The notes under the pieces are model-generated. The model was not told the origin of the DNA and searched no databases. It worked only from the letters and a program-made list of their open reading frames with translations. DNA of 64,000 nt from Scenedesmus sp. PABB004 (Eukaryota), in the NCBI GenBank assembly GCA_014905635.1, contig JABVCE010000020.1, positions 124,001 to 188,000 of the forward strand, in the 5' to 3' direction. A program made the translations under genes and the position numbers. Below are positions 14,230 through 64,000 of the stretch, piece after piece (the stretch's first letter is position 1; each line of letters starts with the position of its first letter).

Positions 14230-17200
14230 TCACGCGCGGCGCGTGACCGTGAGCGGCAGGCCGTTGGCGGGCTGCGGCCCGATGCGCTGCCGCCAGGTGG
14301 TGTCGGTGTCGGCGGTAAAGTCGTACCCCCGCGCCAGCAGCGCCAGGAAGACCTGCAGAGCCGCGCGGGCGGGCGGGCGGGCGGCACGGGGTGGGCGGCG
14401 CGCGCCGTGCTGCCGCGCCCGGCTGCTGCACCCGGCCCGCCGCCAGCCGCGCGCCCCCGCGCCCCGCCGCCGCCAGCCCCGCCCCGCGCGGGGCAGCGCG
14501 TGTGCGAGTGTGCGTGCGTGCGTGCCTTCATCTCTGCCGTTGCCACCGCCCACCGCCCGCCCGCCTGCCTTGGCGCCTGCCTGGCCCGCTAAACCCTGAG
14601 CCCCCTAACACCTGCCTTCATCTCTGCCATTGCCACTGCATAGCCGGCGCAGAAGCGCGGCCCGCCGCCAAACGGCATCTGCCACCCCGGCCGCCCGCCG
14701 TCGGGGCCCAGCATGCGCTCCGGCCGGAAGCGCCACGCGTCGCCGTCGGCGTTGCCGTCGCCGCCGCCGGGCCAGCGCGGGTCAGAGCGGCTCAGCAGCG
14801 CGAGGGGCAGGAACAGGAACGAGCCGGCGGCGATGCTGCGGCGGGGGGAGTGACGCGGCGCGCGACGCGGCGGCGGGGCGGCGGGGCGGCGGGGTCGGCG
14901 GGGCCGCGGGGCGGGGGCGGGGCGACGCAGCGCGGCGCGGCGCGTGGGGGCGGCTGCATGTGCGGCACGCGCAGGGCGGCCGCGTGCGCGGCGCGCGGAG
15001 CCAGCTGGCGCTGGCCGCGCACCGGTAGCCGCCAAGCTCGAAGTCGCGCGCCGCGCGGCGCGTGAGCGCGGGCACGACGGCGCGCAGGCGCAGCGACTCC
15101 CTGCGGCGCAGCGCGGCGGCGGCGGCTTGCGCTGGGCTCGCGCGCGGGGGGCCGGGGCCGCGTGCGCGCGCCCCAGAACCAGCGCTCTCCCTGCCACCCG
15201 CTGGCTCCCACCAACACACGCGCACACACACGCGCCCGCACCTGATGACCGCGTCCGCCCACTCCATGTCACGCAGCGCGCTGCCGCTCAGCGCGGCGCC
15301 GTGCCGCGCCGCCAGCGCCTCCTGCTCCGCGCGCAGCCGCGCCCACGCCTGCGGGCGCGCGGCGGCGCGCGGGCTGGGCGCCGGCGCGCCCGCGCGCGCG
15401 CGCGCGCGCGGCCGGCTGCTGCGCCTGCGCCTGCGCCTGCGGCTGCACCTGCTGCTGTGCCTGCTGCTGCTGCTGCTGCGCCTGCTGCTGCGCAGCACCT
15501 GCGGGTGGTCTGACAGGTTGGCGATGATGGCGGTCAGCGACGAGGCGGACGTGTCGTGCCCGCTGCGCGCAGGCGGGCAAAGGTAGGGAGGCGGCGCGGC
15601 GCGGCGGCGTGGAGCGGTGCGGCGGTGCGGCGGCGTGCTCCCGCCCTGCCGTCCCCCGACTTTGCCCCGCACCCCCATGCGCGCGCGCGCTCCAGCCCCC
15701 AGCCATCGCCCCCCCTCACGCGAGGAGGAGCAGCAGCAGGTTGTCAGTGATCTCCTCGTCAGTGAGCCTGGTGTGTGTGTTGGGGGGGAGGGGGGGGGGG
15801 GGTGAGAAACACAACGGGGGCGCAGGGTTTGGGGTTAAAGGGTTGACCCCTCAAGCTCGAGGGTTGAGGGCGACGGTGCGCGCGAGCAGGCGGCGCGGGC
15901 GCCCGCGGGCGCGCACGTGTTGCCGCCGTCATCGACCGCCGCCACCAGGCCGCCCAGGATGCCGCCCACGGGCTGGCGCCGCGCGAGCGCTGCGCGCGCG
16001 CCGTCGACCGCGGCCTGCGCGGCGCCGCACGCGGCGGCGTGGGCGGCGCGCCTGCGTGCGCGCCCGCGCGGCGCCGCACCCCCCCCTCCCCCCCCCACAC
16101 ACACACACACACGCACACACAGACACACGCACGCACGCGCGCACACAGAGCACCCTGCGTGCCTGCAGCCAGGCGATGAGGTCGCGCCGCGCCGCGAGCG
16201 CGCGGCCGTAGCGCGTGAAGGGCAGGCTGACGTAGGGGAAGGCCAGCAGGCCGTCCGCCCAGGCCAGGTACAGGCGGCGCAGGCGCTGCACCTCGGCGGC
16301 CGGCGGGTCGGCGCCGAGGATGACCTGGAGAGGCGCCGGGGGGGGGGGGGGGGGGGGCAGGTCAGAGCGGCGTCAGGGTTCAAGGTTACAACCGTGAGGT
16401 TTAGGCGCCGCCCGCCGCCACGCTCGGACGCCCGGCGTCGAGCGCCGCCGAGCCGCCGCGCCGCCGCGGGGAGGACACGCAACGGCCGGGCGGGCCCGCA
16501 GCCCTCCGCCCTCCCTCACCCGCCACCCCTGAAGCCTAAACCCTAAACCCTGCCCGCGCACTGAGCCCCGCACCGCAATGATGAAAACAAAGGTCATCTC
16601 CTTGAAGCCGTCCGCCGCGCCGACCGCGCGCCCGGCGCCGCCGGCGGCCGCCCAGGCGGCCAGGTAGCGCCCGAGGACCTACGCGGGCGTGTGTGTGTGT
16701 GTGGGGGGGGGGGGGGGGAGGGGGGGGGAGTCAGTCGGTCTGTCACCTCGCCGGCGGCCGGCGGTCCCGCGCCCCGCCGCCCCGCCGCCCCGCTGCGCCG
16801 CCGCCGCGCCGCCCCGCCGCCGCGCCGCCCTGCCGCCCCGCCCCGCCGCCCCGCCGCCCCGCCGGGCGCGCCTCAGTCATGCGCGGCAGCAGCGCCTCGA
16901 TCGCTGCGGGGCTGAACGCGGGCATGATGAGCCCCCGCAGGTAGGCGTGGCGCGGCTCCTGCACGTTGACCAGGCTCTGCCGCCCCAGCAGCGCGCTGAA
17001 GCCCCGCAGCGCGCCGACGCCCTGCGCGACGTCGCCGCCGTCCGCCTCGGCCGCCAGCACCGCGCGGGCGAGGTCTCCGTCGGAGATCTGGATCTGTGCG
17101 GGCAGCCCGAGCTGCGCCGGCGCCGAGACGAGCGCGTGCGGCTCGGCCGAGGCGCGCTGGAAGCGCTCCGGGTCGAGGATCTGGAGCGGGCGCTGCCACC

Positions 17201-17621
17201 AGGCGTGCGCCGCGGGGGGCGGGGTCGGCAGCGCGGCCAGCACGGGGCAGCGCCCCGCGCCGGCGGCGGGCGCGGCGGCGGGCTCCGGCTCGACCGGCGC
17301 GGTCGCCGCGGCGCTGCCACCTGCGGGCGGGCGGGCGGGCGGCGGGGTCGCGCGCCGGTGGGCGGGAGGCCGCCACGCCAGATGGCTGCTGCTGCCGCTG
17401 CTGCCGGGAGCGCCGCTGCTGCCGGGGCTGCGAAGCCGCGGCGCCGCTGCTGCCGCTGCTCGCGCGCACGCCAGCGCACCACCGCGCTCGTAGCTGCGGC
17501 GCGTCCAGTTCTTCAGCGCCACGCGCGCCAGCTTGGGCGAGAACGGCGCGCTGCTGTGAGCGGCGGGCCGCTGCCCGAGCCGCGCGTGCGGCGGGCGCGC
17601 CGCCGCCGCCGCCATCGCCAT
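14230..17621 (-). CDS. Cytochrome P450 (CYP85-clan/CYP120-like), about 11 exons
   Basis: LIMPAFSP, LTDEEITDNLLLLL|AGHDTS (I-helix), ESLR (ExxR), FRPERM, heme motif FGGGPRFCAG, terminal PANGLPLTV. Confidence 0.93.
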
Positions 17622-24085: not shown

Positions 24086-25121
24086 TCACAGGGGCGGGCC
24101 CGGCGAGGAGGGGCTCTCCTCGGGGACGCAGCCACCATCAACTGGCACCCAGTCCGCGGTCTTGCCGTCTTCGCTCTTCTCACACATCACAACCGGCGGC
24201 ATCGGCTCACCGACGTAGCTGCGGCGCGGTGAGCGGTCGCGCAGGCAGGCAGCGCCGCTGAGCGGGCGGCCCAGAGCGCGCACGGATCGGCGGCAGCAGC
24301 GGGCGGGCGGCGCAGGCAGGGCGGCCGCGGCACGCGGCAGCGCACGCAGCGCACGCAGCGCACGCAGCGCACGCAGCGCACGCAGCGCACGCAGCACACG
24401 CAGCGCGCGCAGCGCACCCCTTGACGCAGCGATAGAAGCACTCGGTGCCCAGGGGCGCGCCGCGGCGGAGACCATAGCAGCCCGGCAGAGCGCGTGCGTG
24501 GTCAAAGCCGGGGAGGGGCGCGTTGCAGACGGGCGGGATGGGGAGGCACACGCCGCCGATGTGCTTTGCCCACTGGCCGCGCGCGTGGTGCGGCCACGGG
24601 TGGCAGTAGATGGTCGGCGGGGACGAGTGCTTGGGTGTGAAGTATCTGCGCGGCCGCGGGACGGAGGTTGTGTGTCGCCCGCGGCGGCGGGGACAGCGGA
24701 GCGCACGCGGGCGTGCGCCGGCGCTCACCCCTCGTGGCAGTTGGCGACGCAGGCGTGGCCCACGACCGTCCCCATGCAGCTGAGCGGCCAGTCCGCGGTC
24801 CAGTTGTCGTGGGTGTAGCCCTCGGGCTCGGGCGGCATCCACTGTTGCGGGCGGCGCGCGCTTGTCAGGCTTTTACAAGGGCTTGCCCCGCAGGGAAAGC
24901 CGCGCGCTGCAGCAGCTCGAACGAGCTCGTGCGAGGCGGCGTTGACCGGCATGCGGCCGACCTGCGGCCCAAGCTGCGCGTGCCGTTCGCCGCACCTCGC
25001 AATGCTGGTCCATGGGCAGGGCTCCCGCCTCCGCGGCCGGTTCGGCCTGCAGCGGCACGCGCGCTGCGGCGACGGCGACGAGGGCCGCCGCGAGGGCGAG
25101 ATGGATGTGCAGCCTGGCCAT
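24086..25121 (-). CDS. Short secreted paralogue with only the two Sushi/CCP-like modules
   Basis: MARLHIHLALAAALVAVAAARVPLQA; NWTADWPLSCMGT...CVANCHEG; ARGQWAKHIGGVCLPIPPVC; CFYRCVKG|YVGEPMP...DGGCVPEESPSSPGPPL*. Confidence 0.75.
24336..24415. repeat. Intronic 9-bp tandem repeat (gcagcgcac)n
   Basis: About 9 units visible directly. Confidence 0.9.
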
Positions 25122-28598: not shown

Positions 28599-31460
28599 AT
28601 GGAGCCAGCGGGCGGGGCCGTGTCTGGGGCGACGCAGGCGGTGCTGTGGGTGTTCGGTGCGTGCGGCGCGCGCGGCGGGCCGTTGGCGCTGCTCGCTGCT
28701 CACGCCGGATCGCCGCGCACAGGCGTCAGCGTGGCGGGCGCGGCGCTCTACGTGGTGGTTCTGATCGCGAGGGCCGTGAACAGCCTGGCGGCGCGGCGCG
28801 CGAGCGGCGGCGGCCGGTGCGAGCCGCAGCAGCGCGGCGCGCAACCGTCGCAACCGCCCGCGCGGCACGGGTGCCGCGCCGCCGACCGGCCAGCGCAGCC
28901 CTACTCACCGCTGCGGCCGCCGCGCCGCGCCGCAGCGCGCCGGGCAAGAAGAAGGCGGCCGCGCCGGAGCCGCCGGCGCCGGCGCGGCCGGCGGGCGCGC
29001 GGCAGCCCGACCTCAAGACGCTCATCAAGCAGAGCAAGGCGGCGAGCAAGATGTGAGGCGGGGCATTGTTTAGGGCCGCGCCGCGCGCGCGCCGCCCCGC
29101 GCCAGCACGGCGGCAGCGGGCCGCCCGGTTGCGAGGCGGCCGCGCCCGCGCTGCCGCGCCGCCCTGCGCCGCCCCGCAGCGCGGCGAGCAAGGAGGACAT
29201 GGCCGCCCATCACGCACTGTTCATCACGACGCTGGTCCACCAGGGCCCCAAGGTGCGCCGGGGCGGGCTGGGCAGGCAGACGCGGCAGCAGGCGCGGCGA
29301 CAGCAGGCGCAGCAGCAGCAGGCACAGCAGCAGGCGCGGCAGCCGAGCGGTGGCCGCCGGGTCCCGACAGCCCCTGCAACCGCCGCCGCCGCCCCCGCCG
29401 CCGGCGCAGGGCCACCCCGACGCGGTGACCGGCGTTGCGTGGAGCGCGGACGGCGGCCGCCTCGCGACGTCGTGCGAGGACAGCCAGCTGCGCGTGTTTG
29501 ACCTGTCCGCGCTCGCGCCCGGCAGCGCGCCGCGGTTCAAGGCCGCCCGCACGCCGCACCCGCCCGTGGGCGTCGGCTTCGGCGACGACGGCAGCAGCCT
29601 CGTCGCCGCGCTGCGCGGTGCGGGCCGCGCCGCGCGCCCGCGCGCCGCCCGCCCCGCGCGACACCACACGCCTGCCCTGCCGCCGCACTCCCGCTCCGGC
29701 TTAACCCTGCGCCCTGCCGCCCCGTCCATGCGTCCCCTGCTAAACCTTCGACCCTAACAGCCTACCCAGGCATCCAGCTCGCCCTCTTCACGCCCCACAA
29801 GGGCCCGGGCAAGGCGGCCGGCCCCCGCGACGTCGCGTGGGAGGCGGAGTGGACCCGGCCGGGCGTCGTCGACTCGCTGCTCGACCTCGCCGTCGTGCCG
29901 GGTGGCCAGGCGGCGGCCCTCGGCGCGCCGCACGCGGGCGGCGTCGCGGTGCTGCTGTCGGAGAAGAAGGAGGGCCGTGTGCTGCGCCTCAACGGTGCGC
30001 ACCCGCCCACGCCTGCCCTGCCCCTCGCCGCCGCGGGCCGCATGCCGCGCCTTGCCCGCGCTCCCACCCCCGCCCCCACCCCCGCGCCGCGCCGTGCTGC
30101 GCCTCCGTGCCGCGCCTCCGTGCCGCGGCTGCGGCGGCGCCGCAGGCGGCGCGGCGCTGGGCGAGTTCCGGCCCAACAGCTTCAGCAACCACGCGCTCGC
30201 GGTCAGCGCCAACGGGCGCTACATCGCGGTCGCGTCGTTCACGGCGGATGTCATGGTGCGCGGCGCTCAGGGGCGCGGCCAGGGGCACGCCACCGCCCGC
30301 ACTGCGCGCGCGCCGCGCCGCCGGCCCGCGCGGCGCCCCCTGCCGCCTGCCTCAACCCCCGATGCCGGCCCGCGCGCCGCGCCGCGCCGCGCGCAGGTGT
30401 GGGAGGTTCAGTGGGGGCGTGACGGCTTCAGGGGGTGCCCCAAGGTTATGGATCTGAAGGGCCACAGCAGCCAGGTGGGCGGCGGCGCGGGGGGTGGGGG
30501 GGGGGGGCTCAAGGGCCACGGCAGCCAGGTGGGCGCCCGGGGGGCCGGGGGCACGGGCTGAGGGAGCGGGGGCCCGGAGGGGGGCTGGGGGCGACCCCGG
30601 GCGGCTGGGGGCTCGGACGTGCGGGGGCTGCCGACCGCCGCGGCGCCCGGCAGGGCGGGCGCGCCGCAACTGCTACCAGCGGGCGAGGAGGTGCTGCGGC
30701 CGCCGCCGCGGCACTGCGGGCGGCCTGAGCTCACAACCCTGCATGCACACCGCGCCGCCACGCCACGCAGGTGATGAGCGCCGCGTTCTCCGCCGACGGC
30801 GGGCGCGCCGTGACGGCGAGCAAGGACGGCACGCTGCGCGTGTGGAACACGGCCGTGCGCCACCAGCTGCAGGCGCGGCGGCGGGCCGCGCGCGCACGCG
30901 TGCGGGGCTGGCGCTCCTGCGCTGGCGTCACCACGCGCGCGCACACCCTCGCCCACACTCACACTCACGCTGGCACACTCACACACTCACACCCACGCTC
31001 ACACACACGCACACAACAGGAGGACCCCAAGGCCCTGCTCAAGCTGCCCCTGCCCCTCCCCGCGGGCCAGGTCTTCGACCGCCTCGCGTGGGGCCCCGAC
31101 GGCACCATCGCCGCGGCGCTCGGCGGGGCGGTGCACTTCATCGACAGCGCCACCGGGCAGGCGCGCGCGTGCCGGGGTTTAGGGTTGACTGTTTAGGGCT
31201 TTAGGGGGGTCGTGGCTGGCCGTGCGCTGCCGGCACCCTGAGTGCGCGCTCTCGATGCGGCCGCCTGATTCCGCCGGCGGCGGGGGTGCCCGCAGGTGCT
31301 GGAGGTGCTGCACGCGCACGACGGCGGCATCACGGCGATGGCGTGGGCGCCGACGCGGCTGGCGCTGCCGGGCGGCGGCGAGCCGGTCGCGGTGCTGGCC
31401 AGCGCCGGCGCGGACGGGCGCGTGCGCCTCTGGCGCAGCCCCGCGGCGGCCGCGTCGTGA
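28599..31460 (+). CDS. TBL2: Transducin beta-like protein 2-type WD40 protein with N-terminal membrane anchor
   Basis: GHPDAVTGVAWSADG, NHALAVSANGRYIAVASFTADVM|VWEV, LKGHSSQ|VMSAAFS...TASKDGTLRVWNTAVRHQLQ|EDPK, HAHDGGITAMAW, ASAGADGRVRLW. Confidence 0.85.
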
Positions 31461-44544: not shown

Positions 44545-45836
44545 ATGGCGGACCGGGAGGCGCTGCTGAACCAGATGAACGGGGCCGCCGAGTACGGCCG
44601 CGTCCACATGCCCGCGCTCTGGGCCGAGGGGGGCCCCACCTTCCTGCAGCTCCGCGGCGGCGGCGGCGAGCCCGCGATGGGCGCGCAGCACGGCGGCGCC
44701 CCGTGGGCGGGTGCCCCGCCGCACGCGGCCAACGGCGCCGGCGCGCCGCTGCAGCACCCGCACCCGCAGCAGCAGCACGGCTTCGGCGCGCCACCGCCGC
44801 CGCCGCCGCCGGGCAGCGCGGCGCGCTCGCCGCCCTCGGACGACACCGCGGGCGCCAGCAGCGACCAGCAGGGCGGCCGCAAGGCCGCCGCGGCGGCGGG
44901 CAAGCCCTGGGGCGCGCGCGCCGCCGGCAAGCAGCTCGGCGGGCCGCCGGCAGGCAACGGCGCCGGGCCGCCGGCAGCCAACGGCGACGCGCTGGGCAAC
45001 GGCTTCCATCCGTCCCAGCTCATCCCGGCCTGGCGCAGCGCGGGCGCCAACGGCGCGGCGGCGGCGTTCCACCCGCAGGCGCAGCAGCAGGCGCAGGCGC
45101 AGGCGCAGCAGCAGGCGCAGCAGGCGCAGGCGCAGCAGCCGGGCGGCGCGCACGCGCGCGGCGCGGCGCGCGGCGGCTGGGAGGTGCAGGACGCGCTCGG
45201 CCTGCTGCCGTCTGGCCTGCTGGACGACGTGTATGACCAGGGAGACGCGGTGGTCGAGGCGCCCTTCATGCCCGGCCCCGGCGCGGGCCTGAGCCTGGGC
45301 GGCAAGGCCGGCCGGCCGCAGCAGCCCGCGCCGCCGGGCGCGAAGCAGCAGGCGCCGCCGCCGCCGGCGCGGCCCGCGGCGCAGCAGCCGCCCGTGCCGC
45401 CGGCGCTGGGCCTCGCCCGCTGCGGCGGCGCGGCGCAGCTGGACGGGCCGGGCGCGTTGGGCTCGCCGCCGCGCGCGGCGGGCCTGGGCGGCCTCGTGGC
45501 CTTTGAGCAGCCCGGCGGCGTGGACCTGACGAGTCCCGTGGGCAGGCTGCAGCACCAGCGCGCGGCGCTCGACGCGCTCGTCGACCAGCAGCAGGCCGCG
45601 GCGCAGGCGCAGGCCGCGGCGCAGGCGCAGGCGCAGCAATTCCTGCTGCTCCAGCAGCAGGCGCGGCTCTACCAGCGCCAGGCGGCGGCGCAGGCGCAGC
45701 AGGAAGCGCACGCCGCGCAGCAGCAGCAGCAGGCGCAGCAGCAGGCTCACCACCAGGCGCAGTACGACAGCATGGGCGGTGCCGCCTGGGGCGGGCCGGC
45801 GCCGCTGGGCTACCCGTTTGCGCCGGGCATGGCGGT

Positions 45837-45868
<32 letters not shown>

Positions 45869-50542: not shown

Positions 50543-52952
50543 ATGCCCAGCCGCAGCGGCCACGCGCCGGCGCGGCACGCGCTCGCACTGGCGGCGGCGC
50601 TGGCGCTGTTGCTCGCGGCCGCCCCGGCCGGCGGCGCGGCGGCGCGCGGGCCACGGCGCGGCCTGCTGGCTGAGGGGGCCGGCTCGCGGGGCCTGCTGGC
50701 CGCCACCGCCGCGCCCGGCAAGGTGTGTAAGCCCGGCACCGGCGTGACGCTGGGCGCAGGCAAGCGCGGCACTTGGTGCCGGCCGTGCAAGGCCGGCACC
50801 TGGTCTGCCGGCGGCCTCAACGCCAAGTGCAAGGCCTGTCGGCAGGGCTACAAGACCGTTGGAGAGGGCGCGACGAGCTGCAGCGACTGCCGGGGCGGCT
50901 ACGGCCTGCCGTTGAACGCAACAGACGTCTGCGAGCCCTGCCCAGCCGGCACGTGGCGCGACGCCAAGCCGGGCGCGGGCATCCAGCCCTGCAACGCGTG
51001 CCCCATGCTGACGACGACAGCAGGCCCCGGCGCCAAGAGCGTCGCCGCCTGCAACCAGAGCCTGGCCCTCCCCGACGACCCGACCGCGTCGGCGCTCCTG
51101 CGCGGCGCGGCGGAGCTGGGCCCGCAGCCCAGTGATGGTGCGCTGGCGTCGTGGCGTCCCGACACCAACCCCTGCACCTGGCGAGGCGTGGTCTGCTCAG
51201 TGCCGCGCGTGGTTAATTGGCTCAACGTTGAACTCGCAGGGCCGTGCACCGGCCGCCTGCCGCGCGCGTGGGGCGAGCTCGGCCCCGGGCTGGAGTTGCT
51301 GGCCATCACTAGCTACGGCAGCGCCAGCCTCGCCGACTCGTCGTGGCCCGTGGAGTGGCGCAACCTCGCCGGCCTCAAGCGCATCCGGCTCGAAGGCATG
51401 GGCATGACCGGCGCGCTGTCGCTCGCGGCGCTGCCGCCCGAGTGTGGAGAGCGTGACGCTTATCAACAACCGCTTCACCTCCCTGGCCGACGACCTGGCG
51501 TCGGGCGCGCCCCCCGCGCTGGCTCAACTGGTCATCGTGCAAGATCCCCCTGCGCACCCCATCGGCGGGACGCTGCCGGCGTCGTGGGCCGCGCTCGCAA
51601 CGCTGCAGGCGCTAGTCCTCCGCAACCAGGCGCTGACCGGCCCGCTGCCTGCCGCTTGGGGCGCCGGCATGGTGACACTTAGAGAGCTGTACTTGGGCGG
51701 CAACGCGCTGACCGGCCCCCTGCCTGCCGCCTGGGGCGACGGCATGGCGGCGCTGATGTGGCTGGACCTGTCGCACAACGCCATCACGGGGCGCCTTCCC
51801 GATGCGTGGGCCGGCATGGCCATGGCCAACCTCACGTCGCTGGACCTGTCGTACAACAACCTGACCGGCCCCATCCCTGAGGCCTGGGCCGACGGCCTGG
51901 CGGCGCGGGGGGTGATGAAACCGCGGATGATGAAACTGGACCTGTCGCACAACGCGCTCAATGGGTCACTGCCCGCCAGGGCGCTGAGCAACGTGTCGGT
52001 CCTGGACCTCAGCTACAACCAGGTGCGGCGCCTGGCCGGGCGGCGGCGCGGCGCAGCAGCGCGCTGGCGTGGGCAGGCCCCGCGCGCGGGCTGCGCTGGC
52101 AGCTCACGGCAGGCTCGTGTGCGCACCGACCTGCGCCCTGCCATGCCGCGCTGCCGCCGCCCCGCAGCTGACGGGCCGCATCGACGGCTGGGCGGGATGG
52201 ACACCGGCTGTAAGCTGCTCCCTAAGCCTGAACCTCGCCCACAACCAGCTCACCGGCCCGCTGCCCGAGGCGCCGGGGGGCAGGGATGGCTTCATTGACC
52301 TGTCGTACAACGCCCTCACCTCCACGCTGCCGGCCGCCTGGGCACGCTGGGATGTCAATCAAGGTGGGCTGTCGCGCTGTGCTGTGACCACTGCCGCCGG
52401 TGCTCGAGCGCGGGGCATGCTGCTGGCAGGCCCAGCCGGACGCCATGTGACCATGGCGTCCGCCCCACATCTGCTGCCGCAGGCTGTGGCGTGGGCGTGA
52501 ACCTCAACCTCGCCGGCAACCAGCTCCGCGGCCCGCTGCCGCCCGAGTGGGGCGCCCGGTCGTCGCCCAAGCCGCACACGACGACGCTGTCCGGCCTCAA
52601 CCTCACTGGCAACCCGCTCGACGCCACGCTGCCGCCCGAGTGGGGCAACAGCACAAGCCTGAGGACGCTGGACGCGCGGTTCTGCGGCCTGCGGGGCTCG
52701 ATTCCAGCTTCAGCGTGGGCTCCGATGACGCTCTCTGCACTTGGCATCAGTGACAACCCAGACCTCTCTGGCTGCCTGCCCCGCGCATGGCTCAAGCTAA
52801 AGGGCTACACGTTGCTGCTGGTGCCACCGACCGGGTGCGAGCTGCCGGAGGGCTGCACCACGTCGGTGCCGCTGAGCGCGCTGGAGAGCGGCGCGCCGCT
52901 GGACCCGGACCCGCTGCACGGCACCAACGTTACTGGCATGTGCGCGCCGTAG
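50543..52952 (+). pseudogene. LRR cassette copy 3; +1 frameshift at ~51440
   Basis: Same signal, Cys-rich and LRR layout; ctgccgcccgagtgtggag has one extra base versus LPPSVE in the paralogues; ends HGTNVTGMCAP*. Confidence 0.8.
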
Positions 52953-52989
52953 CGCCTCTGTGCAGTGCGAGGGGCGCGCGCGTGCGTTG

Positions 52990-54325: not shown

Positions 54326-57241
54326 ATGCGCCGCCGCGCGGCGTGCGCGTGGGCGGCGCCGCTGGGTGCCGCCCTGGTGCTGGCGCTGGCGCTGCCGGCG
54401 CGCGCAGCGAGCGGGTACGCCTGCACGCCAGCCGGCGCCAAGTGTTGCCCCGCCGGGCAGCGCTGCGGCGAGGGCGGGCTGCCCGGGTGCTCTGCCGGCT
54501 CCAAGCGTGAGCGCGCCGCGCGCGCGAGTCGCACGGCTGCGCGGCGCTGCGCCGCCGACCGCCGCACGCGCCGCCGCGCAGGCCCGTCGTGGCTCTACGG
54601 CTGCGCCGGCGAGTCATGGAACGCGGGCTCCGAGCGCCTGCCCGTCGACTGGAGCTACGCGGGCTACGCCGCGGGCGAGCGGCCCATCCCGAACAAGCCG
54701 GCATCGTCCGACGTCAGGGCGTTTGGCGCCAAGGGCGACGGCGCGAGCGACGACACCGCCGCGATCGCGCGCGCGGTCGCCGCGGCGCGCGACGGCGGCG
54801 TGGTGTTTTTCCCGCCCGGGCGCTACGTCGTGACGTCGCGCATTGACATCCGCAAGTCGGTCGTGCTGCGCGGCGCGGGGCGGCGCGCCACGGTGCTGTT
54901 CTTCCCCCGCAGCCTCGCCGACGCGCACGGCAACCGCGGCGGCTGGGGGCACGGCACGTGCTTCATCAACTTCTGGGGCTGGTGCGCTGAACGCAGACTG
55001 CGCGGCCGGGCTGGCCGCCTCCGCCGCCGCGCGCGCGCACGCGCGCGCGGGCGCGAGCGCCGGCCGCCGGCCGCCGGCACCGCAGGAACCCGGTGCGCTG
55101 GGACACGCAGCTCGCGCGCGTCACGTCGGGACGCCTGCCGCGCGGTGCCAAGACGCTCGACGTGGACAGCACAGCGGGCATCAAGCCCGGCGCGTGGGTG
55201 CGCCTCGTGCTGCGCGACTCGCGTGAGCGGCGCGCCGCGCCGCGCCGCGCCGCGCAGCAGGGCATCTGGGGGCCCAGCCACGGGGCGCCCACACCCGCGC
55301 CCAGCGCAGCCGTGACGCCGCCTGCACCTCTCGTGCGCCCGCGCGCTGCGCAGCTGAGGTCTTCAAGGCTGTGCTGATGAATGGTCTCATGGAGCCGGGC
55401 TGGTGCGCCGCGGGGGGCCTCCTTGGCCCTGCCGCCGGGGCGCCGGGGCCGTGGGGGACGGTGTGGACGCGCGGCAACCTCAGCCGCTCACACGCGCCGC
55501 GCCCGCGCCGCCCGCGTGTGTGTGCACATCAGGCCCAGCAGCGCCGCAAAGAACATCGTCCGCTTCACGAGCCGCGTGGCGTCGGTGGGCGGCGGGCGCG
55601 TGACGCTCGAGCGGCCCCTCCCCTGGGAGGTGCGTGCGCTGGCGGCCGCGCTGCGCCGCGGCCGCGCCGGCCTGGCCGCGTCCCGAGCGCCCGCCGCTGC
55701 CGTGGCAGGTGCGCGGCGAGTGGGGCCCGACGCTGCACGCGGTGCGGCCCACGGTCACCGAGGCGGGCGTGGAGCACATGACGCTGGAGTTCAAGTGGAC
55801 CAAGTGAGCCCGGGCGCACGCTGCGGGCCGCACGCGCTGCCCCCCCCCCCTGCGCACGAGCTGCCCGCGGCCGCATGAAGTCGCGTTGCTCGTGAGGTGC
55901 GTGCGGGCTGGCGCCCCTGAGCCCTCACCCCTTGAACCCTAAACCCCTGCCCCCCAGGTACAACGGGCACCTGAAGGAGGACGGCCTCAACGCGATCCAC
56001 TTCAACCAGCTCGCCCAGAGCTGGGTGCGCGACGTGGCCATAATCAACGCCGGTGGGCGCCGCGGCCGCGCCGGAGGCCGCGCCGGGGGCGGGCAGGCAG
56101 CGCGTGGGCAGCGCGGGGCCGCCGGCGCGCGGCGCGGCGCGCGGCGGCTGAGCGCGGAGGGCCGCGCCGCGCCGGGCGCAGACACTGGCATCTACATGTG
56201 GGGCGCCTCCTTCTGCACCATACAGGACGTCGAGCTGGGCGTCACCAGGTGCTGCGCGCGCGCGTGCCGGGCTGTGGGCGCGGGCCGGGCCGGACGAGGA
56301 GGGCGCGGGGGCGTGGCGGGACGGTGCACCCCAGGCCACCCCGCGCGCGCACCGACAGGCCGCCGCCGCCGCCGCCGCCGCCGCCGCAGCTTGCGCGCGT
56401 CTGCGGCGTACGACTACTGGGGCGGCCGCGACCGCAACGGCCACCGCGGGGTGTGGACCGAGGTGCGGCGCGGGCCCCTGTCCCCCGCCCCCGCCCCCGC
56501 CCCCGCCCCCGCCCCCCCCGCCCCCGCCCCCGCCCCTGCCTCGCCCGCCCGCTCGCGCCGCCGCCGTCGCCGCTGACGCGCCGCGCCCGTCCGGACGGGC
56601 GCAGTTTGGTGAGGCCAACCTGATGCAGCGCATCGCCGTCGCGGCGCCGTACGTTCACGACTTCAGGTGCGCGCAGCAGCGGCGCGCCCGCTCCTGCCCA
56701 TGCCCCCCGCTCCCCTGCTCACCGCGCCGCTGCTCACCTCCACGCCGCCGCGTCCGCGCGCCGCGCCGCCCCCGGCTCGCGGCGCAGCGTCGCAACGGGC
56801 GAGTTCAACAGCGTCTGGGCCGACTCCTGGGGCGCCGACCTCAACCTCGACTTCCACAAGGGCGGCCCGTACGCCAACCTGTGAGCCTGCAGGGGGGGGG
56901 GGGGGCAGCCGTGCCCCAGCTGCGCTGTGCGGCGTGGCGCGCGGACACGCGGGCGCGCGGCCCACGGCCCTGCACCCACCCGACTCTCTCCCCTCCGGCT
57001 TGGTCCCTCGCCGTGCCCGGCAGGTACACCAGCCTGGACCTGGGGCGGGGCACGCGGCCGTTCCGGTCCGGCGGCGGCCCGGGCGCCGGCCCGCACAGCG
57101 GCGCGCACCAGACGTTTTGGAACATTAAGGCACCCGCGCCCCTGCCGCTGCCGGACGCCGGCTTCGGGCCGGCGATGACGCTCGTCGGCGTGCCGACGCG
57201 CGACGCGGCCGCGAGCCGCGTCGCGGCGCGCTGGGTGCAGG

Positions 57242-57290
<49 letters not shown>

Positions 57291-57855: not shown

Positions 57856-60426
57856 ATGCCCAGCCGCAGCGGCCACGCGCTGGCGCGGCACGCGCTCGCA
57901 CTGGTGGCGGCGCTGGCGCTGCTGCTCGCGGCCGCCCCGGCCGGCGCCGCTGCGGCGCGCGGGCCCAGGCGCGGCCTGCTGGCGAATCAGCGTGGCTCCC
58001 GCGGCCTGCTGGCCTCCGCCGCTGCGCCCACCGTTACCTGTTCGCCCGGCAGCGGCGTGTCGGACGGCGGCGCCGGCGAGTGCGCGCCGTGCAAGCGCGG
58101 CACCTGGTCGGCGGGCGGGCCGGGCGCCAAGTGCCAGGCCTGCAAAAAGGGATATACCACGATCAAAGAGGGCTCTACATCATCGTGGCCTTGCCAGTAC
58201 TGCCAGGACGGCTACGGTCGGGGGGCGCCCGGCAAAGGCTGCGTTCTCTGCCCGACCGGCACATGGAGCGCCGCCACGCTGGGCTCGCGCATCAAGCCCT
58301 GCAACGCCTGCCCCTTGCTAACAACGACGGCAGGCCCCGGCGCCACGAGCGTGGCCGCGTGCAACGTGACCCTCGCCCTCCCCGACGACCCGCGCGCGTC
58401 GGCGCTGCTGCGTGGCCTGCTGGAGCTGGGCCCGCAGCTCGGCACTCCATACTTGGCACCCACCGACTGGCACCCCGGCACCGACCCGTGCACATGGCTG
58501 GGCGTGAGCTGCTCAAACAGCACGCCGCGCGTGGTCACAGGGGTCGACATCGCCCTCACAGGACCGCGGACCGGCCGCCTGCCGCGCGCGTGGGCCGAGC
58601 TCGGCCCCGGGCTGGGGGAGCTGAGCATCAACGTCCAAAACATCAGGGGCCAGAACTACAGCCAGGCTGGTCTCAGCAACGCGTCGTGGCCCGTGGAGTG
58701 GCGCAACCTCACCGGCCTCAAGAGCCTCTCCCTCGGCAACGTTGGCACGACCGGCCCGCTGTCGCTGGCGGCGCTGCCGCCGAGCGTGGAGAGCGTGTGG
58801 CTTTCTGACAATCGCTTCACCTCCCTGGCTGACGACGAGCCGGGCGCGCTGCCCCCGCTGTGTGGCCTTCTCGTCATCCAATACTCTGAGCTGACCTGCG
58901 CGTCGGTCAAGACTCTGCGCACCGCATCGGCGGGACGCTGCCGGCGTCGTGGGGCGCGCTCGATGCACTGCAGTCGCTCGACCTCCCCAGCCAAGCACTG
59001 ACCGGCCCGCTGCCCGGGGCGTGGGGCGGCATGGCGGCCCTCACCTCTCTCGACCTGTCGTACAACAACATCAGCGGCCCCCTGCCCGGGGCGTTGGGCG
59101 GCATGGCGGCGCTCACCACTCTTGATTTGCGCAACAACGCGCTCAGCGGCCCGCTTCCCGAGCCGTGGTCCGGCATGGCGGCGCTCCAAGATCTGCGCCT
59201 GAGCGGCAACGCCCTCGACGGTCCCCTGCCTGCCGCCTGGGGCGCCGGCATGGCGGCGCTCACGTTGCTGGACCTGTCGCACAACGCCATTATGGGGCCC
59301 CTTCCCGATGAGTGGGGCGGCCTGGCGAACCTCACATCAATGCAACTGTCGTACAACAACATCAGCGGCCCCATCCCTGACGCCTGGGCCGGCGGCCTGG
59401 CGGCGCTGCAAACTCTGCAGCTGTCGCATAATGCCTTCCATGGGTCACTGCCCGCCAGGGCGCTGAGCAACGTGCCGGTCCTGGACCTCAGCTACAATCA
59501 GGTGCGGCGCCTGCCTGGCTGGGCGGCGGCGCGGCGCAGCGGCGCGCTGGCGTGGGCAGGCCCCGCGCGCGGGCTGCGCTGGTCACGGCACGCTCGCGTG
59601 TGCACCGACCTGCCGCGGAACCGCCGCCCGCAGTTGACGGGCCGTATCAACGACTGGGCGGGGTGGATGCGGGTGGGGGTGGAGCATCAGTGGTGCTTGA
59701 GAGGGATGACATTCGATCCCACCCTCAACCTCACCCACAACCAGCTGACCGGCCCGCTGCCCGAGGCGTTGATCGGACGGTCTGGCGGCATCGACCTGTC
59801 GGACAACGCCCTCACCTCCACGCTGCCGGCGGCCTGGGCGCGTGGCGAAGGTGCGGACTGGCGGGCTGCCGCCGCTGGTGGTGTTCGAGCGACCGCCGCG
59901 GCTGCAAGCGCGGTACGCTGCAGGGGGCAGGCCCAGCCACATTGCATGACCGCGGCAAACTTGCCGCCGCCACCAGGCTGTGCCGAGGGCGTGAACCTTC
60001 ACCTGGCCAACAACCAGCTCCGCGGCCTTGCTGCCGCCCGAGTGGGGCGCCTGGTCGTTGCCCAAGCCGCAGACGACGACGCTGTCCGTCCTCAACCTCA
60101 CCGGCAACCCGCTCAACGCCACGCTGCCGCCCGAGTGGGGCAACATCACAAACATGTGGCCGCTGTATGCGAGGTCCTGCGGCCTGAGGGGCTCGATTCC
60201 AGCGGCGTGGGCGCCAATGCAGTTCATTGACCTGGGCATCAGCGACAACCCGGAGCTCTCCGGCTGCCTGCCGCGCGCGTGGCTCGACGGTGGCCTGACG
60301 CTGCTGTATTATCAGCCCAACTGCACCTGCACCATGAGCGTGCAGCTGAGCGAGCTGGCGAGCGGCAAGACGCTGGACCCGGACCCGCTGCGCAACACGC
60401 AAATCGTCGGCATTTGCCCTGTGTGA
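57856..60426 (+). pseudogene. LRR cassette copy 4; frameshifts at ~58895 and ~60028
   Basis: Frame switches from IQYSELT into LRVGQDSAHRIGGTLP; cgcggccttgctgccg has an extra base versus RGPLPP; ends LRNTQIVGICPV*. Confidence 0.8.
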
Positions 60427-60859: not shown

Positions 60860-61053
60860 GCTGCGGATGTGCTTTGGTCGTTCAGTGGCAGGGGCTGGCG
60901 GGGGCGAGCGCCGCTGGCTGCGAATATGCTTGGTCGGTCAATGGCAGGGGCTGGTGGGGGCGGGCGCTGCTGGCTGCGGATGTGCTTGGTCGTTCAATGG
61001 CAGGGGCTGGTGGGGGCGGGCGCTGCTGGCTGCGGATGTGCTTGGTCGTTCAA
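60860..61053 (+). repeat. 56-57 bp minisatellite (about 3.5 units) in the LRR downstream flank
   Basis: gctgcggatgtgcttggtcgttcaatggcaggggctggtgggggcgggcgctgctg; units start at 60860, 60917, 60973, 61029. Confidence 0.9.
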
Positions 61054-61934
61054 CGCCAGCGGGGAAGCACTGCCGGCAGCATGCCGAGTCTGCGCGGCTG
61101 GGCAGCTCGCTGGGCAGCTCGCCAAACCAAGGTGGTTGGGGCGGCCGGGGCGGCTGTGCCCGGCTGATTTAACTCAAGGCGGGCGTGAGGCGCGGCCGCT
61201 ACGTTTGGCGCGGACCGCCGGACTGAACATGCAGCATGCCCTTCTGGTGGGGGCTGGTGGGCGCCGCTGGCGCGCGTGCGCTGCCGCTCGGCCTTCAGCA
61301 ACGCATGTGGTGTGGGGGTCGGTGCGCGTGCGGGACCGAGCTTGGGTTGCACGAAGTTCAATGGGGCTGGTGGGGGTGGCCGCGGCCGGATGCAGATGTG
61401 CTTGGTCGTTCAATGACAGGCGGGAAGCGCTGCCGGCGGCATGCCGGCTCTGCACGGCTGCTGGGCGGCTCGTCCCAACCATGGTCGGGGCGGCTGGCCA
61501 GGGCTGCGGCGCGTGCGCGCGCTGGTGGGTGGTGGCGGCGGTGACGTGGTGCGGGGGACGCGGCTCGCAGGCGCGGCGCCGCTGTGTTGCATGCGCGCGG
61601 GGGCACCGGATGCACTGGCCTTGGACGGGGCGGGCTCGGCGCGGCGTCTGCTGCGCGCGCAAGCGACTGCTGGGGGGTCCACCGCGCGCGCGCTGCGCGG
61701 GCTGCATCGCGGCGCCTGGACCGCGGAGTGCCGCCGGCGGCGCACGCTCCACCGCCCGCGCGCAAGCGCCGCCCTCCCGTCGCCCAGCACCAGCGCCGTG
61801 CGCCAAACCCCGCGCACTGGCGAGGAGCCGGCGCGTCGCCGCCAGCAGCGGCGCCGGCACGTCGCGCCCCGCAGCCGCCTGCCGCGCCGCTGCGGGCCGC
61901 GCGGCCGCTGCATGGCGACCTCCCGGGAGCGCTG

Positions 61935-64000
61935 ATGGGCCGGGCAGTGGCGGCGGCGGCGACACGGCGCTGCGCGGGCGCCGGCGAGCGCCGGAGCAGC
62001 AGCGGCGGCGACGGCGCCGTGCCGCCCTGGGAGAAGGTGCTCTGGCGGGCGCAGCCCTACCCGGACAACCACACGGACGCTAGCTTCCTGCAGCACCTCG
62101 TGGGCCCCCCGCGCGCAGCGGCGGCGGTTGCGCCGGCGGTTGCGGCGGAGTGGCCCCGCCGCTGCTCGCGCCGCTGCTGGCGTCCGCCGCCGCCGCCGCC
62201 GCACCCCCACCGCGCCGCCGCCGCCGCCGCCGCCGCAGATCGTCAACGCCGACGTGCCGCAGCGCGACTTTTGGACCGTCGCGCTCGACTCGGCGGCCGT
62301 GAGCCAGCAGCTCGCGACCGTCGCGGCGGCGGTCGCCGTGCCCGTGCACCTGCGCCTCGGCCTGCTCAGCGCCCGCGCGCTGCTGGCCGCGAGCGCCGTG
62401 CTGCTGCTGGTCGGTGAGCCACGCGGCGGCGGGCGCGCGCGGCGGCGCGGGGCAGCGGCGGCTGGCGCGGCGCGGCCTGCCTGGCTGCGAGGAGCAGGGC
62501 TCACGGCGAGCGCCGCCGCGCGCCCCTCTCAGGCTATGCAGTGTGCGGGCTGCTCGGAGGCCACGTCCTGGGCGGCTCCCTGGTGAGCGGCGGGGGCGGC
62601 GCCGGCGTTGCGGCGGGAGCTGCCGCGCCTCCCGCCGCTGGCCCGCAGCTCACGACGGGCCTGCTGCCCCATCCGACCTCCCGCCGCCCGCAGCGCCGCG
62701 GCGTGCGCCAGGCGGCGCTGCTGTCGGGAGGTGCGCCGCCGACCGGGCGCCGGCGGCGCGGATCCCGCGCGGCGGCGGCGGCGTACTGCCGCCGCGCGGC
62801 CCGCCCGCGCGCACCGACTCACGCCCGCCCTCGCGCTCCCCGCGCTCGCCGCGCCCGTCTCCCGCCCTGGGTGCTCCCTAAACCCTGCGCCCCTGCTGGG
62901 CCGCCTAAACCCTGCACGCCCTCACCAGGCGTGTACCTCATGAGCCCCATGCTGCACAGCCTCACGCGGGCGGTCAGCGCCGACAGCGTCATCGCCATGG
63001 TCGCGGGCCTCTGCGGGCTGCACCTCTTCCTGCATGACTACAAGTGAGCACTGGCGGCTGTGTGGGCGTGTGACTGTGGGGGGGAGGGGGGGGGGCACAC
63101 AGGTGTCGGACCCGGCGCTAACCAGCCCGTGCGCCCGCTCGCCCCCCCCCCCCCCCCACACACACACACACCGCACATCGCCGCCGCCGCGCCGCAGCTT
63201 TGTCAACAGCGTGACGGAGCAGCTCACCGGCACGCTCTCGCTCGGCGCCGCTGTCTTTGCGTCGGTGCTGCTCGCGGGGCTGATGCGGTCCGAGTTTGAC
63301 GTGGTGCGGCGCGGCTGGCCGCCGCGCCGCCACGCCGCCGCGCCGCCGCGCCGCGCCGCGCGCCATCCCTCGATTCGCCGCCCCTTGACGCTGCGCCCCT
63401 CAGCGCTGCGTCCCTTCCCCACCCCCTTGCCCGCCCCCGCCCCTGCCCCTGCCCTGGCCCGCCTCTCAACCCCCCCCCCCCCCGCCGCCCGTCTGCCAGT
63501 TTGTGTGCGTGCTGTTCTGCCTGGAGCTCTACCTCCTCTCACCCTTCATGCGGCGCTACACGCGCAACGCCTCGCTCGCCGCGCACCTGCTGCTCACGGC
63601 CGCGATGGTGTGCGGCGCCGGGTGCGCGCTCGCGCGCCTCTCGCCCGCCGGCGGCGCCGCGTTTGCGCTCGCCGTGTGCGCGGTGTCGCTCGCGTGCCCC
63701 GCGGCGCTGGTGCGCACCCAGAAGTTCAAGGCCCAGATCAACGGCCCCTGGGACGAGGCGGTGCCGCACATGCCCACCAGCCTCCGCCCGCGCGGCGCCG
63801 AGCCGGACCGGCCGCGCGCGGGCGGCGAGCCGGCGGGCGGCGAGCCGGCACCGCACGCGGGCGGCGAGCCGGCGCGGCAACAGGTGGGCGGGGAGCCGGC
63901 ACAGCAGGCGGGCGGCGAGCCGGCGCGGCAGGCAGGCGGGGGGCGAGGCACGCCGCGGGCGCGGCGACAGCGGCGCAGCGAGGAGGCGCCTGGTGATGCG
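61935..64000 (+). CDS. PIGC: Phosphatidylinositol N-acetylglucosaminyltransferase subunit C (GPI2), runs off the right edge
   Basis: WEKVLWRAQPYPDNHTDASFL, LMSPMLHSLTRAVSADSV, HLFLHDY, SLGAAVFASVLLA, QKFKAQINGPWDEA; GGEPA-repeat tail. Confidence 0.93.

What the first reader, a model, noticed from the sequence alone, without database searches (positions are those of the whole stretch)
14589..62912. Telomere-like repeats seen only in introns, with consistent polarity
Seen: degenerate TTTAGGG/CCCTAAA tracts at 14589-14609, 15825-15870, 16376-16405, 16527-16551, 29068-29074, 29701-29758, 31176-31208, 55915-55948 and 62876-62912, all inside introns of four unrelated genes. In transcript orientation the G-strand lies just after the donor (14589, 16527, 29068, 31176) and the C-strand in the middle or 3' half (15825, 16376, 29701, 55915, 62876). 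One P450 intron (~16327-16573) has both, inverted. Established: TTTAGGG is the plant-type telomere; UAGGG binds hnRNP A1-type proteins; CUAAC resembles a branch point. Inference: either scars of telomerase-assisted break repair (both ends extended then rejoined gives this G-then-C arrangement) that build intron sequence, or telomeric repeats co-opted as splicing signals.
Basis: partly seen in the sequence, partly recalled or inferred. Interest (0 to 1): 0.75.

Follow-up and report, generated by a model that had tools for sequence, protein, structure and literature searches.

The report
Telomere-repeat scars inside algal introns
Short, worn copies of the plant-type chromosome-end repeat sit almost only inside introns of this very GC-rich alga-like genome, most likely as leftovers of DNA breaks patched with telomere repeats, and their fixed direction follows a strand bias that all introns here share.

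Summary
All nine tracts are at the stated coordinates. Exact TTTAGGG occurs 7 times against 0.36 expected. Telomeric 6-mers occur 66 times in predicted introns (4.6 expected), 11 times in unassigned DNA (8.3 expected) and once in exons. In transcript sense, G-strand tracts lie 8-41 nt after donors and C-strand tracts lie in the 3' part.

The polarity is not special to telomere motifs. TG/CA microsatellites and G/C runs show the same polarity, and introns run from G-rich to C-rich.

My best reading (about 0.5) is that these are short interstitial telomeric sequences added during double-strand-break repair inside existing introns. Supporting points:
- One tract (14589-14609) lies between two 24-nt direct copies of the exon-end/donor junction, which is a staggered-break scar.
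- 10 of 11 tracts have G-rich DNA on the priming side.
- Metagenome contigs of other protists hold fresh head-to-head telomere palindromes flanked by 16-39-nt duplications. Two of these behave as whole introns.

No hairpin, introner family or promoter telo-box pattern was found. Gene models are my own, and no RNA data or related genomes were available. This scan noted similar telomere-palindrome scars in rotifer introns before.

The parts
14589..14609 (-). Degenerate telomere tract, about 3 units. It reads as the G strand in the transcript and starts 8 nt after the donor of the last P450 intron (14353-14615).
14524..14547 (-). Intron-internal copy of a 24-nt direct duplication. Its partner is 14613-14636, at the exon end/donor. 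The telomere tract plus 45 nt of filler lie between the two copies.
   Evidence: exon-end 20-mer repeated with 1 mismatch; score 21, while 3 of 398 random intron positions reach 20.
14613..14636 (-). Exon-end/donor copy of the 24-nt duplication. The P450 Pfam alignment ends at this exon end (profile position 422 of 462).
15824..15870 (-). Degenerate C-strand tract (transcript sense) in the middle to 3' part of P450 intron 15768-15916.
16376..16405 (-). C-strand pieces (transcript sense) 51-76 nt before the acceptor of P450 intron 16325-16573. One piece abuts a CTGAC.
16527..16551 (-). Best-kept tract: 17 nt of perfect repeat, G strand in the transcript, 23-39 nt after the donor of intron 16325-16573.
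29068..29075 (+). Single G-strand unit 16 nt after the donor of WD40-gene intron 29053-29179.
29702..29758 (+). C-strand pieces in the 3' part of WD40-gene intron 29618-29769. They include the only CTAAC found before any acceptor in the window (A at -12).
31175..31206 (+). Four interrupted G-strand units 15-46 nt after the predicted (GC) donor of WD40-gene intron 31161-31295.
55930..55948 (+). C-strand tract of 1.7 units, 12-18 nt before the acceptor of intron 55804-55957 in the pectate-lyase-like gene.
62876..62913 (+). Two C-strand tracts 16-48 nt before the acceptor of GPI2 intron 62731-62928. Pfam supports the acceptor: the next exon starts at profile position 113.
30735..30741 (+). Lone AACCCTG in the 3' part of intron 30529-30770. 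A like one lies at 42826-42832 in intron 42806-42926 of the RRM gene (- strand).

Best explanation
The tracts are short interstitial telomeric sequences. A few units of the TTTAGGG repeat were added to a broken DNA end during double-strand-break repair inside transcribed genes. The likely agent is telomerase priming on a 3' end that ends in AG or in G-rich sequence.

The tracts landed in introns that already existed and made them somewhat longer. They survive only in introns because exons cannot hold them: GC3 is about 95% here, and the repeat carries stop codons.

Their direction is set, or filtered, by the strand bias of all introns in this genome. The sense strand is G/T-rich near the donor, so the upstream broken end is the good telomerase primer and a G-strand tract results. 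The antisense strand is G-rich near the acceptor, so the downstream end is extended and the transcript reads the C strand.

Shown: enrichment, intron restriction, polarity, the general skew, one duplication-flanked scar, and fresh analogues elsewhere.
Inferred: telomerase as the agent, and primer preference as the cause of the polarity.
For: 1. Motif-specific excess. Introns hold 66 telomeric 6-mers vs 4.6 expected. Telomeric rotations make up 25 of 40 and 20 of 43 same-composition 7-mers.
2. Tract 14589-14609 plus 45 nt of filler lie between two 24-nt direct copies of the exon-end/donor junction. This is the signature of a filled-in staggered break (3 of 398 random intron positions score as high).
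3. With each tract oriented as the G strand, its 5' (priming) flank is G-rich in 10 of 11 tracts (mean skew +0.31, Wilcoxon p 0.003). The other flank is weaker (+0.18, p 0.07).
4. Nine tract ends read AACCCTG, or CAGGGTT on the other strand (9 vs 3.19 expected). That is, the G strand starts in register after CAG, as expected for priming on an exposed AG.
5. The 8 tract-bearing introns are longer (median 153 nt) than the other 98 (median 133.5 nt; one-sided p 0.015).
6. Fresh events occur elsewhere. Among metagenome loci, 8 of 25 head-to-head G-then-C telomere palindromes have abutting direct duplications of 16-39 nt, against 0 of 8 C-then-G pairs.
7. L073, a GC-rich contig of the TTTAGGG type with a CAG|GTGCGG donor, has a 29-nt duplication of the donor junction around such a palindrome. 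It also has an unselected long C-strand tract just before the previous acceptor.
8. Precedent: passages of PMC7215372 describe short telomeric insertions at break sites in horse and human. They report target duplications, random filler, in-register AG/GG at the break, and no insertions in exons.
Against: - Unassigned (intergenic/UTR) DNA shows no excess (11 vs 8.3). Neutral break scars should also collect there, so either breaks or priming are intron-biased, or selection is keeping the intronic copies.
- Only 1 of 12 tracts keeps a flanking duplication.
- Exon-end versus intron-end repeats are no better than controls across the 105 predicted introns of 61 nt or more tested.
- The polarity is explained equally well by RNA-level selection.
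- The organism's own telomere repeat was not seen.
- No empty orthologous site could be examined.
- Introns are predicted, not RNA-verified.
- The random control for flank duplications in the metagenome loci is not clean (31 of 300 reach score 13), because many of those contigs are repeat-rich.
Confidence: 0.5

Rival explanations
1. The tracts are kept because they work in the pre-mRNA. G-strand copies (GGG, UAGGG) would act as intronic splicing enhancers, or as hnRNP-type binding sites, just after the donor. C-strand copies would act as branch-point and pyrimidine-tract surrogates before the acceptor, in a genome where A and T are scarce.
For: - Intron restriction with no intergenic excess.
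- Tight placement at 8-41 nt after donors and 12-93 nt before acceptors.
- The only CTAAC before any acceptor is made by a tract (29751), and AACC-CTGAC occurs in intron 16325-16573.
- Only 30 of 106 introns have any CTNAY 8-60 nt from the acceptor, so branch signals are weak here.
- An unselected C-strand tract lies right before an acceptor in L073.
Against: - Only 8 of 106 introns carry a tract of 3 or more hits.
- Positions and lengths vary, and the tracts share nothing beyond the core.
- 2 of 7 C-type tracts overlap a CTNAY. Two others lie 51-93 nt from the acceptor.
- The duplication-flanked tract shows origin by insertion.
- No conservation or RNA data are available.
Confidence: 0.2
2. 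No telomerase is involved. The tracts are ordinary low-complexity or microsatellite-like sequence that arises by slippage from chance seeds in skewed, G-run-rich intron DNA. They resemble telomere repeats because G3 plus the rare A/T bases favour such words.
For: - Introns also hold TG and CA microsatellites and long G and C runs with the same polarity: GTGTGT 11/7/2 vs ACACAC 0/1/18 by thirds, GGGGG 56/29/3 vs CCCCC 19/30/103.
- Composition alone predicts roughly 6-7 to 1 odds for the observed direction. This is my estimate from the frequencies.
Against: - Same-composition words are not enriched. The 7 telomeric rotations of 140 permutations take 25 of 40 and 20 of 43 counts.
- TTTAGGG in the first 60 nt occurs 5 times vs 0.01 expected.
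- A 7-nt unit repeated 2-4 times is not typical slippage.
- One tract has break-repair flanks.
Confidence: 0.12
3. The tracts are DNA-level telo-boxes: binding sites for telomere-repeat-binding Myb (TRB-type) proteins that tune transcription or chromatin, as in land plants and as this scan noted for Ostreococcus.
For: - The telomere core is the same motif class.
- Earlier notes e1-564507 and e1-567614 report telo-box-like motifs in a green alga.
- Passages of PMC3022908 report more telo-boxes in the first two introns of Arabidopsis genes.
Against: - The canonical AAACCCTA occurs once in the window.
- Unassigned DNA, which holds the promoters and UTRs, shows no excess.
- Tracts lie in internal and last introns of a P450, a WD40, a pectate-lyase-like and a GPI2 gene, not in translation genes.
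- A double-strand binding site does not predict polarity along the intron.
- In plants, introns overall are not enriched (PMC3022908 Table 1).
Confidence: 0.06
4. The tracts are ends of an intron-generating mobile element (introner or MITE) whose terminal inverted repeats resemble telomere repeats.
For: - A G-then-C order is what inverted termini give in either orientation. One intron has both arms.
- Introners are known from other algae. I saw this only in search listings and one passage of PMC9481584.
Against: - No similarity beyond the telomere core among tract introns.
- 7 of 8 tract introns have one arm only.
- No fixed-length target duplication at intron ends.
- In other organisms the duplications vary from 16 to 39 nt, even within one contig (L077: 16, 17 and 22 nt). 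That speaks against a transposase.
Confidence: 0.05

Closest known systems
Short interstitial telomeric sequences inserted at double-strand-break repair sites in vertebrates (Nergadze, Santagostino, Giulotto and colleagues; PMC7215372 passages read; PMC2246262 seen as a listing only)
   Same: - A few telomere units sit at internal sites, in one direction per tract.
- One case has a direct target duplication plus random filler.
- The tract starts in register after AG.
- None lie in exons.
   Different: - In human, the intron share fits random insertion (31%). Here the excess is intron-only.
- Here the direction depends on position along the intron.
- No empty orthologous site could be compared here.
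- The organism is a very GC-rich green-alga-like eukaryote with the 7-nt plant-type unit.
Plant telo-box (AAACCCTA) in promoters, 5'UTRs and first introns of translation-apparatus genes (PMC3022908 passages). Also telo-box-like motifs this scan noted in Ostreococcus (e1-564507, e1-567614).
   Same: The motif is derived from the same telomere repeat. The copies are short and inside genes.
   Different: - Not at gene starts.
- Not in translation genes.
- The canonical 8-mer occurs only once.
- Strong 5'-to-3' polarity inside introns.
Telomere-repeat palindromes in bdelloid rotifer introns, noted earlier by this scan (e1-2578116, e1-2593252, e1-2577722) and read there as breaks capped on both ends and rejoined
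   Same: Telomere repeats inside introns of intact genes, read as healed breaks. The head-to-head form also turned up in my metagenome loci.
   Different: In this window the tracts are one-armed, short and decayed. Only one intron has both arms, and they are far apart.
Intron gain by break repair or by introners that reuse a target duplication for a splice site. This is recalled from Li et al. 2009 on Daphnia and Huff et al. 2016; neither was read here. Farlow et al. 2011 was seen only as cited in PMC8226300.
   Same: In loci L077 and L042, an insert flanked by a duplication that contains CAG is bounded by GT and AG. Its removal restores an open, GC3-rich frame.
   Different: There the insert is made of the organism's own telomere repeats facing each other, not of a transposon or random filler. 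In the window itself, no whole intron of this kind is seen.

Membership tests
Short interstitial telomeric sequence of the break-repair type | Tandem units of the organism's own telomere repeat at an internal site | tested here: inconclusive
   TTTAGGG-type units are present and enriched. The organism's telomeres are not in the window and no genome is held. TTTAGGG is described as the ancestral green-algal type in PMC8226300.
Short interstitial telomeric sequence of the break-repair type | Repair signatures at the flanks: target duplication, deletion, filler, or in-register bases at the break | tested here: met
   Met for 1 of 12 tracts: a 24-nt duplication plus 45-nt filler at 14524-14636. 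An in-register CAG start occurs at 9 tract ends. The other 11 tracts have no detectable duplication.
Short interstitial telomeric sequence of the break-repair type | An empty orthologous or allelic site exists (insertion shown by comparison) | not testable with these tools
   No related genome was available. The metagenome scan with the window's own LRR family found nothing. The same-strain contigs gave no listed difference at the tracts.
Plant telo-box | AAACCCTA core placed in promoters, 5'UTRs or first introns | tested here: not met
   One AAACCCTA in 64 kb, inside an internal P450 intron. Unassigned DNA is not enriched.
Plant telo-box | Association with translation-apparatus genes and partner boxes (site II, TEF) | tested here: not met
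   Host genes are a P450, a WD40, a pectate-lyase-like and a GPI2 gene. Partner boxes were not searched.
Introner / MITE-derived introns | A multi-copy family with shared internal sequence | tested here: not met
   All-against-all comparison of 106 introns and alignments of the tract introns show only the telomere core in common. This covers the window only.
Introner / MITE-derived introns | Terminal inverted repeats with a target duplication of fixed length at the intron ends | tested here: not met
   Exon-end versus intron-end repeats match controls (mean 6.05 vs 5.90). Intron halves pair no better with each other than with other introns' halves.
Intronic splicing signals (G-run enhancers, branch point) | A fixed position relative to splice sites across many introns, or overlap with the branch site | tested here: inconclusive
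   Placement is tight, but only 8 of 106 introns carry a tract. 2 of 7 C-type tracts overlap a CTNAY. No lariat or RNA data are available.

The most novel reading that the evidence does not exclude
Telomerase healing of staggered DNA breaks is a recurrent maker of intron sequence in algae and other protists.

When both 3' ends are extended and the ends rejoin, the result is a head-to-head telomere palindrome between direct duplications. If the duplication carries CAG, the G arm supplies GT (G|GTTAGG in TTAGGG-type organisms) and the C arm supplies CTAAC, so the scar is a ready-made intron. L077 and L042 look like this.

In this TTTAGGG-type alga the same process only pads existing introns. Here telomerase's need for a G-rich 3' end writes the G-after-donor, C-before-acceptor polarity.
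Probability: 0.35. Interest if true: 0.85.

Novelty: new variant of a known kind. Interest (0 to 1): 0.62.

Why it matters
How introns are gained and grow is an old open question. Break repair is a favoured but thinly documented route. Telomere units are a recognisable signature left at a repaired break, so they mark repair events that would otherwise be invisible.

Here they indicate that at least some intron sequence in a GC-rich alga was added by break repair. The search they prompted turned up contigs where a telomere palindrome with flanking duplications appears to be the whole intron.

If this holds up, it gives a concrete, testable mechanism: cut a gene, then look for telomere-capped rejoining that is spliced out. 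It also gives a simple genome-wide search pattern.

If instead the tracts are kept for splicing, they would be a compact cis-signal in a genome where branch-point motifs are otherwise hard to see.

Tried and rejected
- Whole genome: none is held.
- RNA evidence: no RNA holder is listed.
- Laying the two DNA runs X1 and X2 gave only short same-strain metagenome contigs. No listed difference falls at a tract, and cover there is uncertain, so this is no evidence either way.
- Homologues of the P450 N-terminal exon: none found.
- Metagenome scan with an alignment of the window's four LRR paralogues: the patterns fell on the signal peptide and no relative was confirmed. It did not even find the window itself, so this organism seems absent from that collection.
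- Protein atlas on the GPI2 exon, tried for taxonomy: no usable hit.
- Hairpin idea (G arm pairs with C arm): intron 16325-16573 folds no better than shuffles (z +0.56) and the arms do not pair in the minimum-energy fold. The 5' halves of 93 introns pair no better with their own 3' halves than with others' (my length normalisation there is crude).
- Introner family: rejected for the window.
- Target duplications at intron ends in general: none.
- Duplication around the two-armed intron: none.
- Calpain-motif continuity across the L042 palindrome: the motif was my recollection, and Pfam gave no hit on the two short flanks. Only a downstream Peptidase_C2 hit and frame and GC3 continuity support that intron.
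- The second L077(+) palindrome (74 nt) gives no frame-consistent canonical splice.
- Literature: the six searches aimed at telomere-repeat introns, out of nine searches in all, found no paper describing telomere-repeat palindromes as introns or polarity of telomere motifs within introns. Subscription journals are not covered.

Full report
**What the window is.** The 64 kb are 77% G+C with no N and carry intron-rich eukaryotic genes. No genome is held and no RNA run was listed. I therefore built a small hidden-Markov gene finder trained on the window itself. It gives 18 genes and 106 introns of 40 nt or more, with 32.6 kb exon, 16.3 kb intron and 15.0 kb unassigned. The learned donor is CAG|GTGCGC and the acceptor is GCAG|G. 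Pfam hits on single exons fit the models in order along the profiles. The P450 exons match profile positions 274-294, 330-355 and 382-422. The GPI2 exons match 27-81, 113-149, 154-185 and 185-270. Some models are imperfect: some neighbouring genes are merged, there are two tiny false introns, and 18% of donors are predicted as GC. Boundaries may be off by a few bases. The green-alga label is an inference from the TTTAGGG motif, the splice consensus and the gene content, not a tool result.

**The observation.**
- Exact TTTAGGG occurs 7 times against 0.36 expected.
- Of 78 telomeric 6-mer hits, 66 lie in predicted introns, 1 in an exon and 11 in unassigned DNA.
- Against 200 dinucleotide shuffles per compartment, introns hold 66 vs 4.62 +/- 2.31, unassigned DNA 11 vs 8.28 +/- 3.17, and exons 1 vs 15.13 +/- 4.59.
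- The excess is specific to the motif. Among the 140 words with the composition of the unit, the 7 telomeric rotations take 25 of 40 counts in the G-type class and 20 of 43 in the C-type class.
- In transcript sense, 32 of 33 G-type hits lie 8-41 nt after a donor (4 introns). All 33 C-type hits lie 12-93 nt before an acceptor (7 introns).
- The hosts are a P450, a WD40 protein, a pectate-lyase-like protein and GPI2, with single weak hits in an RRM gene and an LRR gene.

**The polarity is general.**
- Introns here run from GC skew +0.19 in the first tenth to -0.29 in the ninth. T exceeds A at the start and A exceeds T at the end.
- Other strand-asymmetric words behave like the telomere motif. 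By thirds of the intron, GTGTGT counts 11/7/2 and ACACAC 0/1/18. GGGGG counts 56/29/3 and CCCCC 19/30/103.
- From the base frequencies alone I estimate 6-7 to 1 odds for the observed direction at each end.
The first refuter is not met, because the motif is not enriched outside introns.

**What the tracts are not.**
- They share nothing beyond the telomere core, so no introner family is visible.
- The one intron with both arms (16325-16573) folds no better than shuffles (z +0.56) and the arms do not pair.
- Intron 5' halves pair no better with their own 3' halves than with others'.
- The canonical telo-box 8-mer occurs once. The tracts are in internal or last introns of non-translation genes, unlike plant telo-boxes (PMC3022908 passages).
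- Branch-point overlap is limited. Only 30 of 106 introns have a CTNAY 8-60 nt before the acceptor. Tract sequence contributes the only CTAAC (29751) and one CTGAC (intron 16325-16573).

**Evidence for break repair in the window.**
- In the last P450 intron, the final 24 nt of the exon-end/donor junction (14613-14636) recur with one mismatch at 14524-14547. The telomere tract (14589-14609) and 45 nt of GC-rich filler lie between the copies. Only 3 of 398 random intron positions reach that score.
- The tract abuts the exon-side copy. So the exon-side 3' end was the one extended.
- An in-frame stop in the tract means the upstream donor must be used (read).
- A second junction duplication without telomere units lies at 30461-30530 in the WD40 gene.
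- With each tract oriented as the G strand, its 5' flank is G-rich in 10 of 11 cases (mean +0.31, p 0.003), more so than the 3' flank (+0.18, p 0.07).
- Nine tract ends read AACCCTG/CAGGGTT (9 vs 3.19 expected, all in tract introns). This means the G strand begins in register after CAG.
- Tract introns are somewhat longer: median 153 nt for 8 introns vs 133.5 nt for the other 98 (p 0.015).
- The other 11 tracts show no duplication, and intron ends in general show none.

**Related sequences elsewhere.** Most are true telomere or subtelomere arrays of many organisms.

A subset holds tight head-to-head palindromes, with the G strand followed by the C strand.
- With a spacer of 60 nt or less there are 25 G-then-C pairs and 8 C-then-G pairs.
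- 8 of the 25 have direct duplications of 16-39 nt abutting both sides (score 13 or more). None of the 8 reversed pairs does.
- A random-position control reaches that score in 31 of 300 trials, inflated by repeat-rich contigs.
- Duplication lengths differ within one contig (L077: 16, 17 and 22 nt). This argues for staggered breaks rather than a transposase.
- A direct duplication cannot come from an assembler folding a telomere back on itself.

Two palindromes behave as whole introns.
- L077 minus strand, 77 nt. It starts GT right after a duplicated CAG and ends at the second CAG. Removing it joins open frames of 214 and 121 codons with GC3 of 0.90 and 0.92, next to a Sel1-repeat hit.
- L042, 147 nt. 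It runs from GTGAGG to CCAG. Frames of 300 and 46 codons join with GC3 of 0.96 and 0.91, and a calpain-domain hit lies downstream.
- A third case (L077 plus strand, 94 nt) is weaker. A fourth (74 nt) gives no consistent splice.

L073 is the closest analogue to the window.
- It is a 62% GC contig of the TTTAGGG type whose exon ends CAG|GTGCGG.
- A 29-nt duplication of that donor junction flanks a G-plus-C palindrome that starts 26 nt after the donor.
- The preceding intron, which the search pattern did not select, carries about 60 nt of C-strand tract up to 12 nt before its acceptor.
- L015 adds an unselected G tract 6 nt after a GTGAGC donor.

These loci come from other organisms. They show that the mechanism exists, not that it made each tract in the window.

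**Mechanism proposed.** A staggered break leaves 3' overhangs. Telomerase extends a 3' end that ends in AG or G-rich sequence. Fill-in and end joining follow. If both ends are extended, the product is duplication-G arm-C arm-duplication. If one end is extended, the product is a one-armed tract plus filler, as at 14524-14636.

Near donors the sense strand is the G-rich primer. Near acceptors the antisense strand is. This yields the observed directions.

Exonic events are lost unless they splice out. This explains the exon void, together with the codon bias.

The lack of an intergenic excess is the main weakness. It requires either that breaks or priming favour G-skewed transcribed DNA, or that selection keeps intronic copies, which is the main rival reading.

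**Known context.**
- Short telomeric insertions at break sites are described for horse and human in PMC7215372 (passages). They report target duplications, filler and in-register bases, and no insertions in exons. There the intron share fits random insertion, and the effect on splicing is left open.
- PMC6549138 (passages) mentions interstitial repeats in Chlamydomonas without locating them in introns.
- PMC8226300 and PMC12633428 (passages) give telomere types of green algae.
- The six literature searches aimed at this question found no paper on telomere palindromes as introns or on polarity within introns.
- Earlier notes of this scan report telomere-repeat palindromes in rotifer introns read as healed breaks, and telo-box-like promoter motifs in Ostreococcus. 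The first set agrees with my reading. The second is a rival that the window's data do not support.

**Verdict.** The tracts are best filed as a new variant of short interstitial telomeric sequences: intron-restricted and skew-polarised, in a GC-rich alga. Confidence is about 0.5. A bolder link to intron birth is open and testable.

Noticed in passing
window 30461-30530: The exon end plus donor of a WD40-gene exon (about 27 nt) is duplicated in tandem with about 25 nt of G-run filler between the copies. My gene model read through the first donor. This is a second staggered-duplication scar at a donor, without telomere units.
   Followed up: partly
L077 4376-4452 (- strand), 6265-6358 and 6416-6489 (+ strand); L042 986-1132: In GC-rich contigs of the TTAGGG type, head-to-head telomere palindromes flanked by 16-22-nt direct duplications interrupt GC3-rich open frames. 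They are bounded by GT and AG, so they appear to be whole introns made of telomere repeats.
   Followed up: partly
L073 3087-3328 and 3372-3501: A 62% GC contig of the TTTAGGG type shows two features. A long C-strand tract lies just before one acceptor. In the next intron, a G-plus-C palindrome lies between 29-nt copies of the donor junction. This shows the same polarity as the window, in another organism.
   Followed up: partly
window 6206-8982 (-), 11155-13674 (-), 50543-52952 (+), 57871-60426 (+): Four paralogous receptor-like genes (signal peptide, Ephrin_rec_like cysteine-rich modules, LRRNT_2, LRR repeats) are 67-69% identical in the first exon. Their paralogous introns are still alignable (up to 91%).
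   Followed up: partly
window, all introns (for example 16046-16140, 30940-31010, 16330-16360): TG microsatellites and G runs cluster in the 5' third of introns. CA microsatellites and C runs cluster in the 3' third. The cause of this general strand gradient is unknown.
   Followed up: partly
window 14615 and 31161 (intron 5' ends): About 18% of predicted donors are GC rather than GT, including two of the tract-bearing introns. Without RNA data this may be partly a model artefact.
   Followed up: no
window 60891-61460: A 56-nt unit is repeated three times, with a fourth diverged copy 360 nt on, in the unassigned stretch upstream of the GPI2 gene.
   Followed up: no
window 24328-24426: A 9-nt unit is repeated about 10 times inside a predicted intron of a small gene on the minus strand.
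   Followed up: no
window 44545-47328: A single exon of about 930 codons, rich in Gln/Ala repeats and with strong coding periodicity, has no Pfam match.
   Followed up: no
L015 3914-3929; L057 (9 tracts in 14 kb): Contigs of about 58-60% GC carry many short interstitial TTTAGGG tracts. One starts 6 nt after a GTGAGC donor, and two form head-to-head pairs.
   Followed up: no
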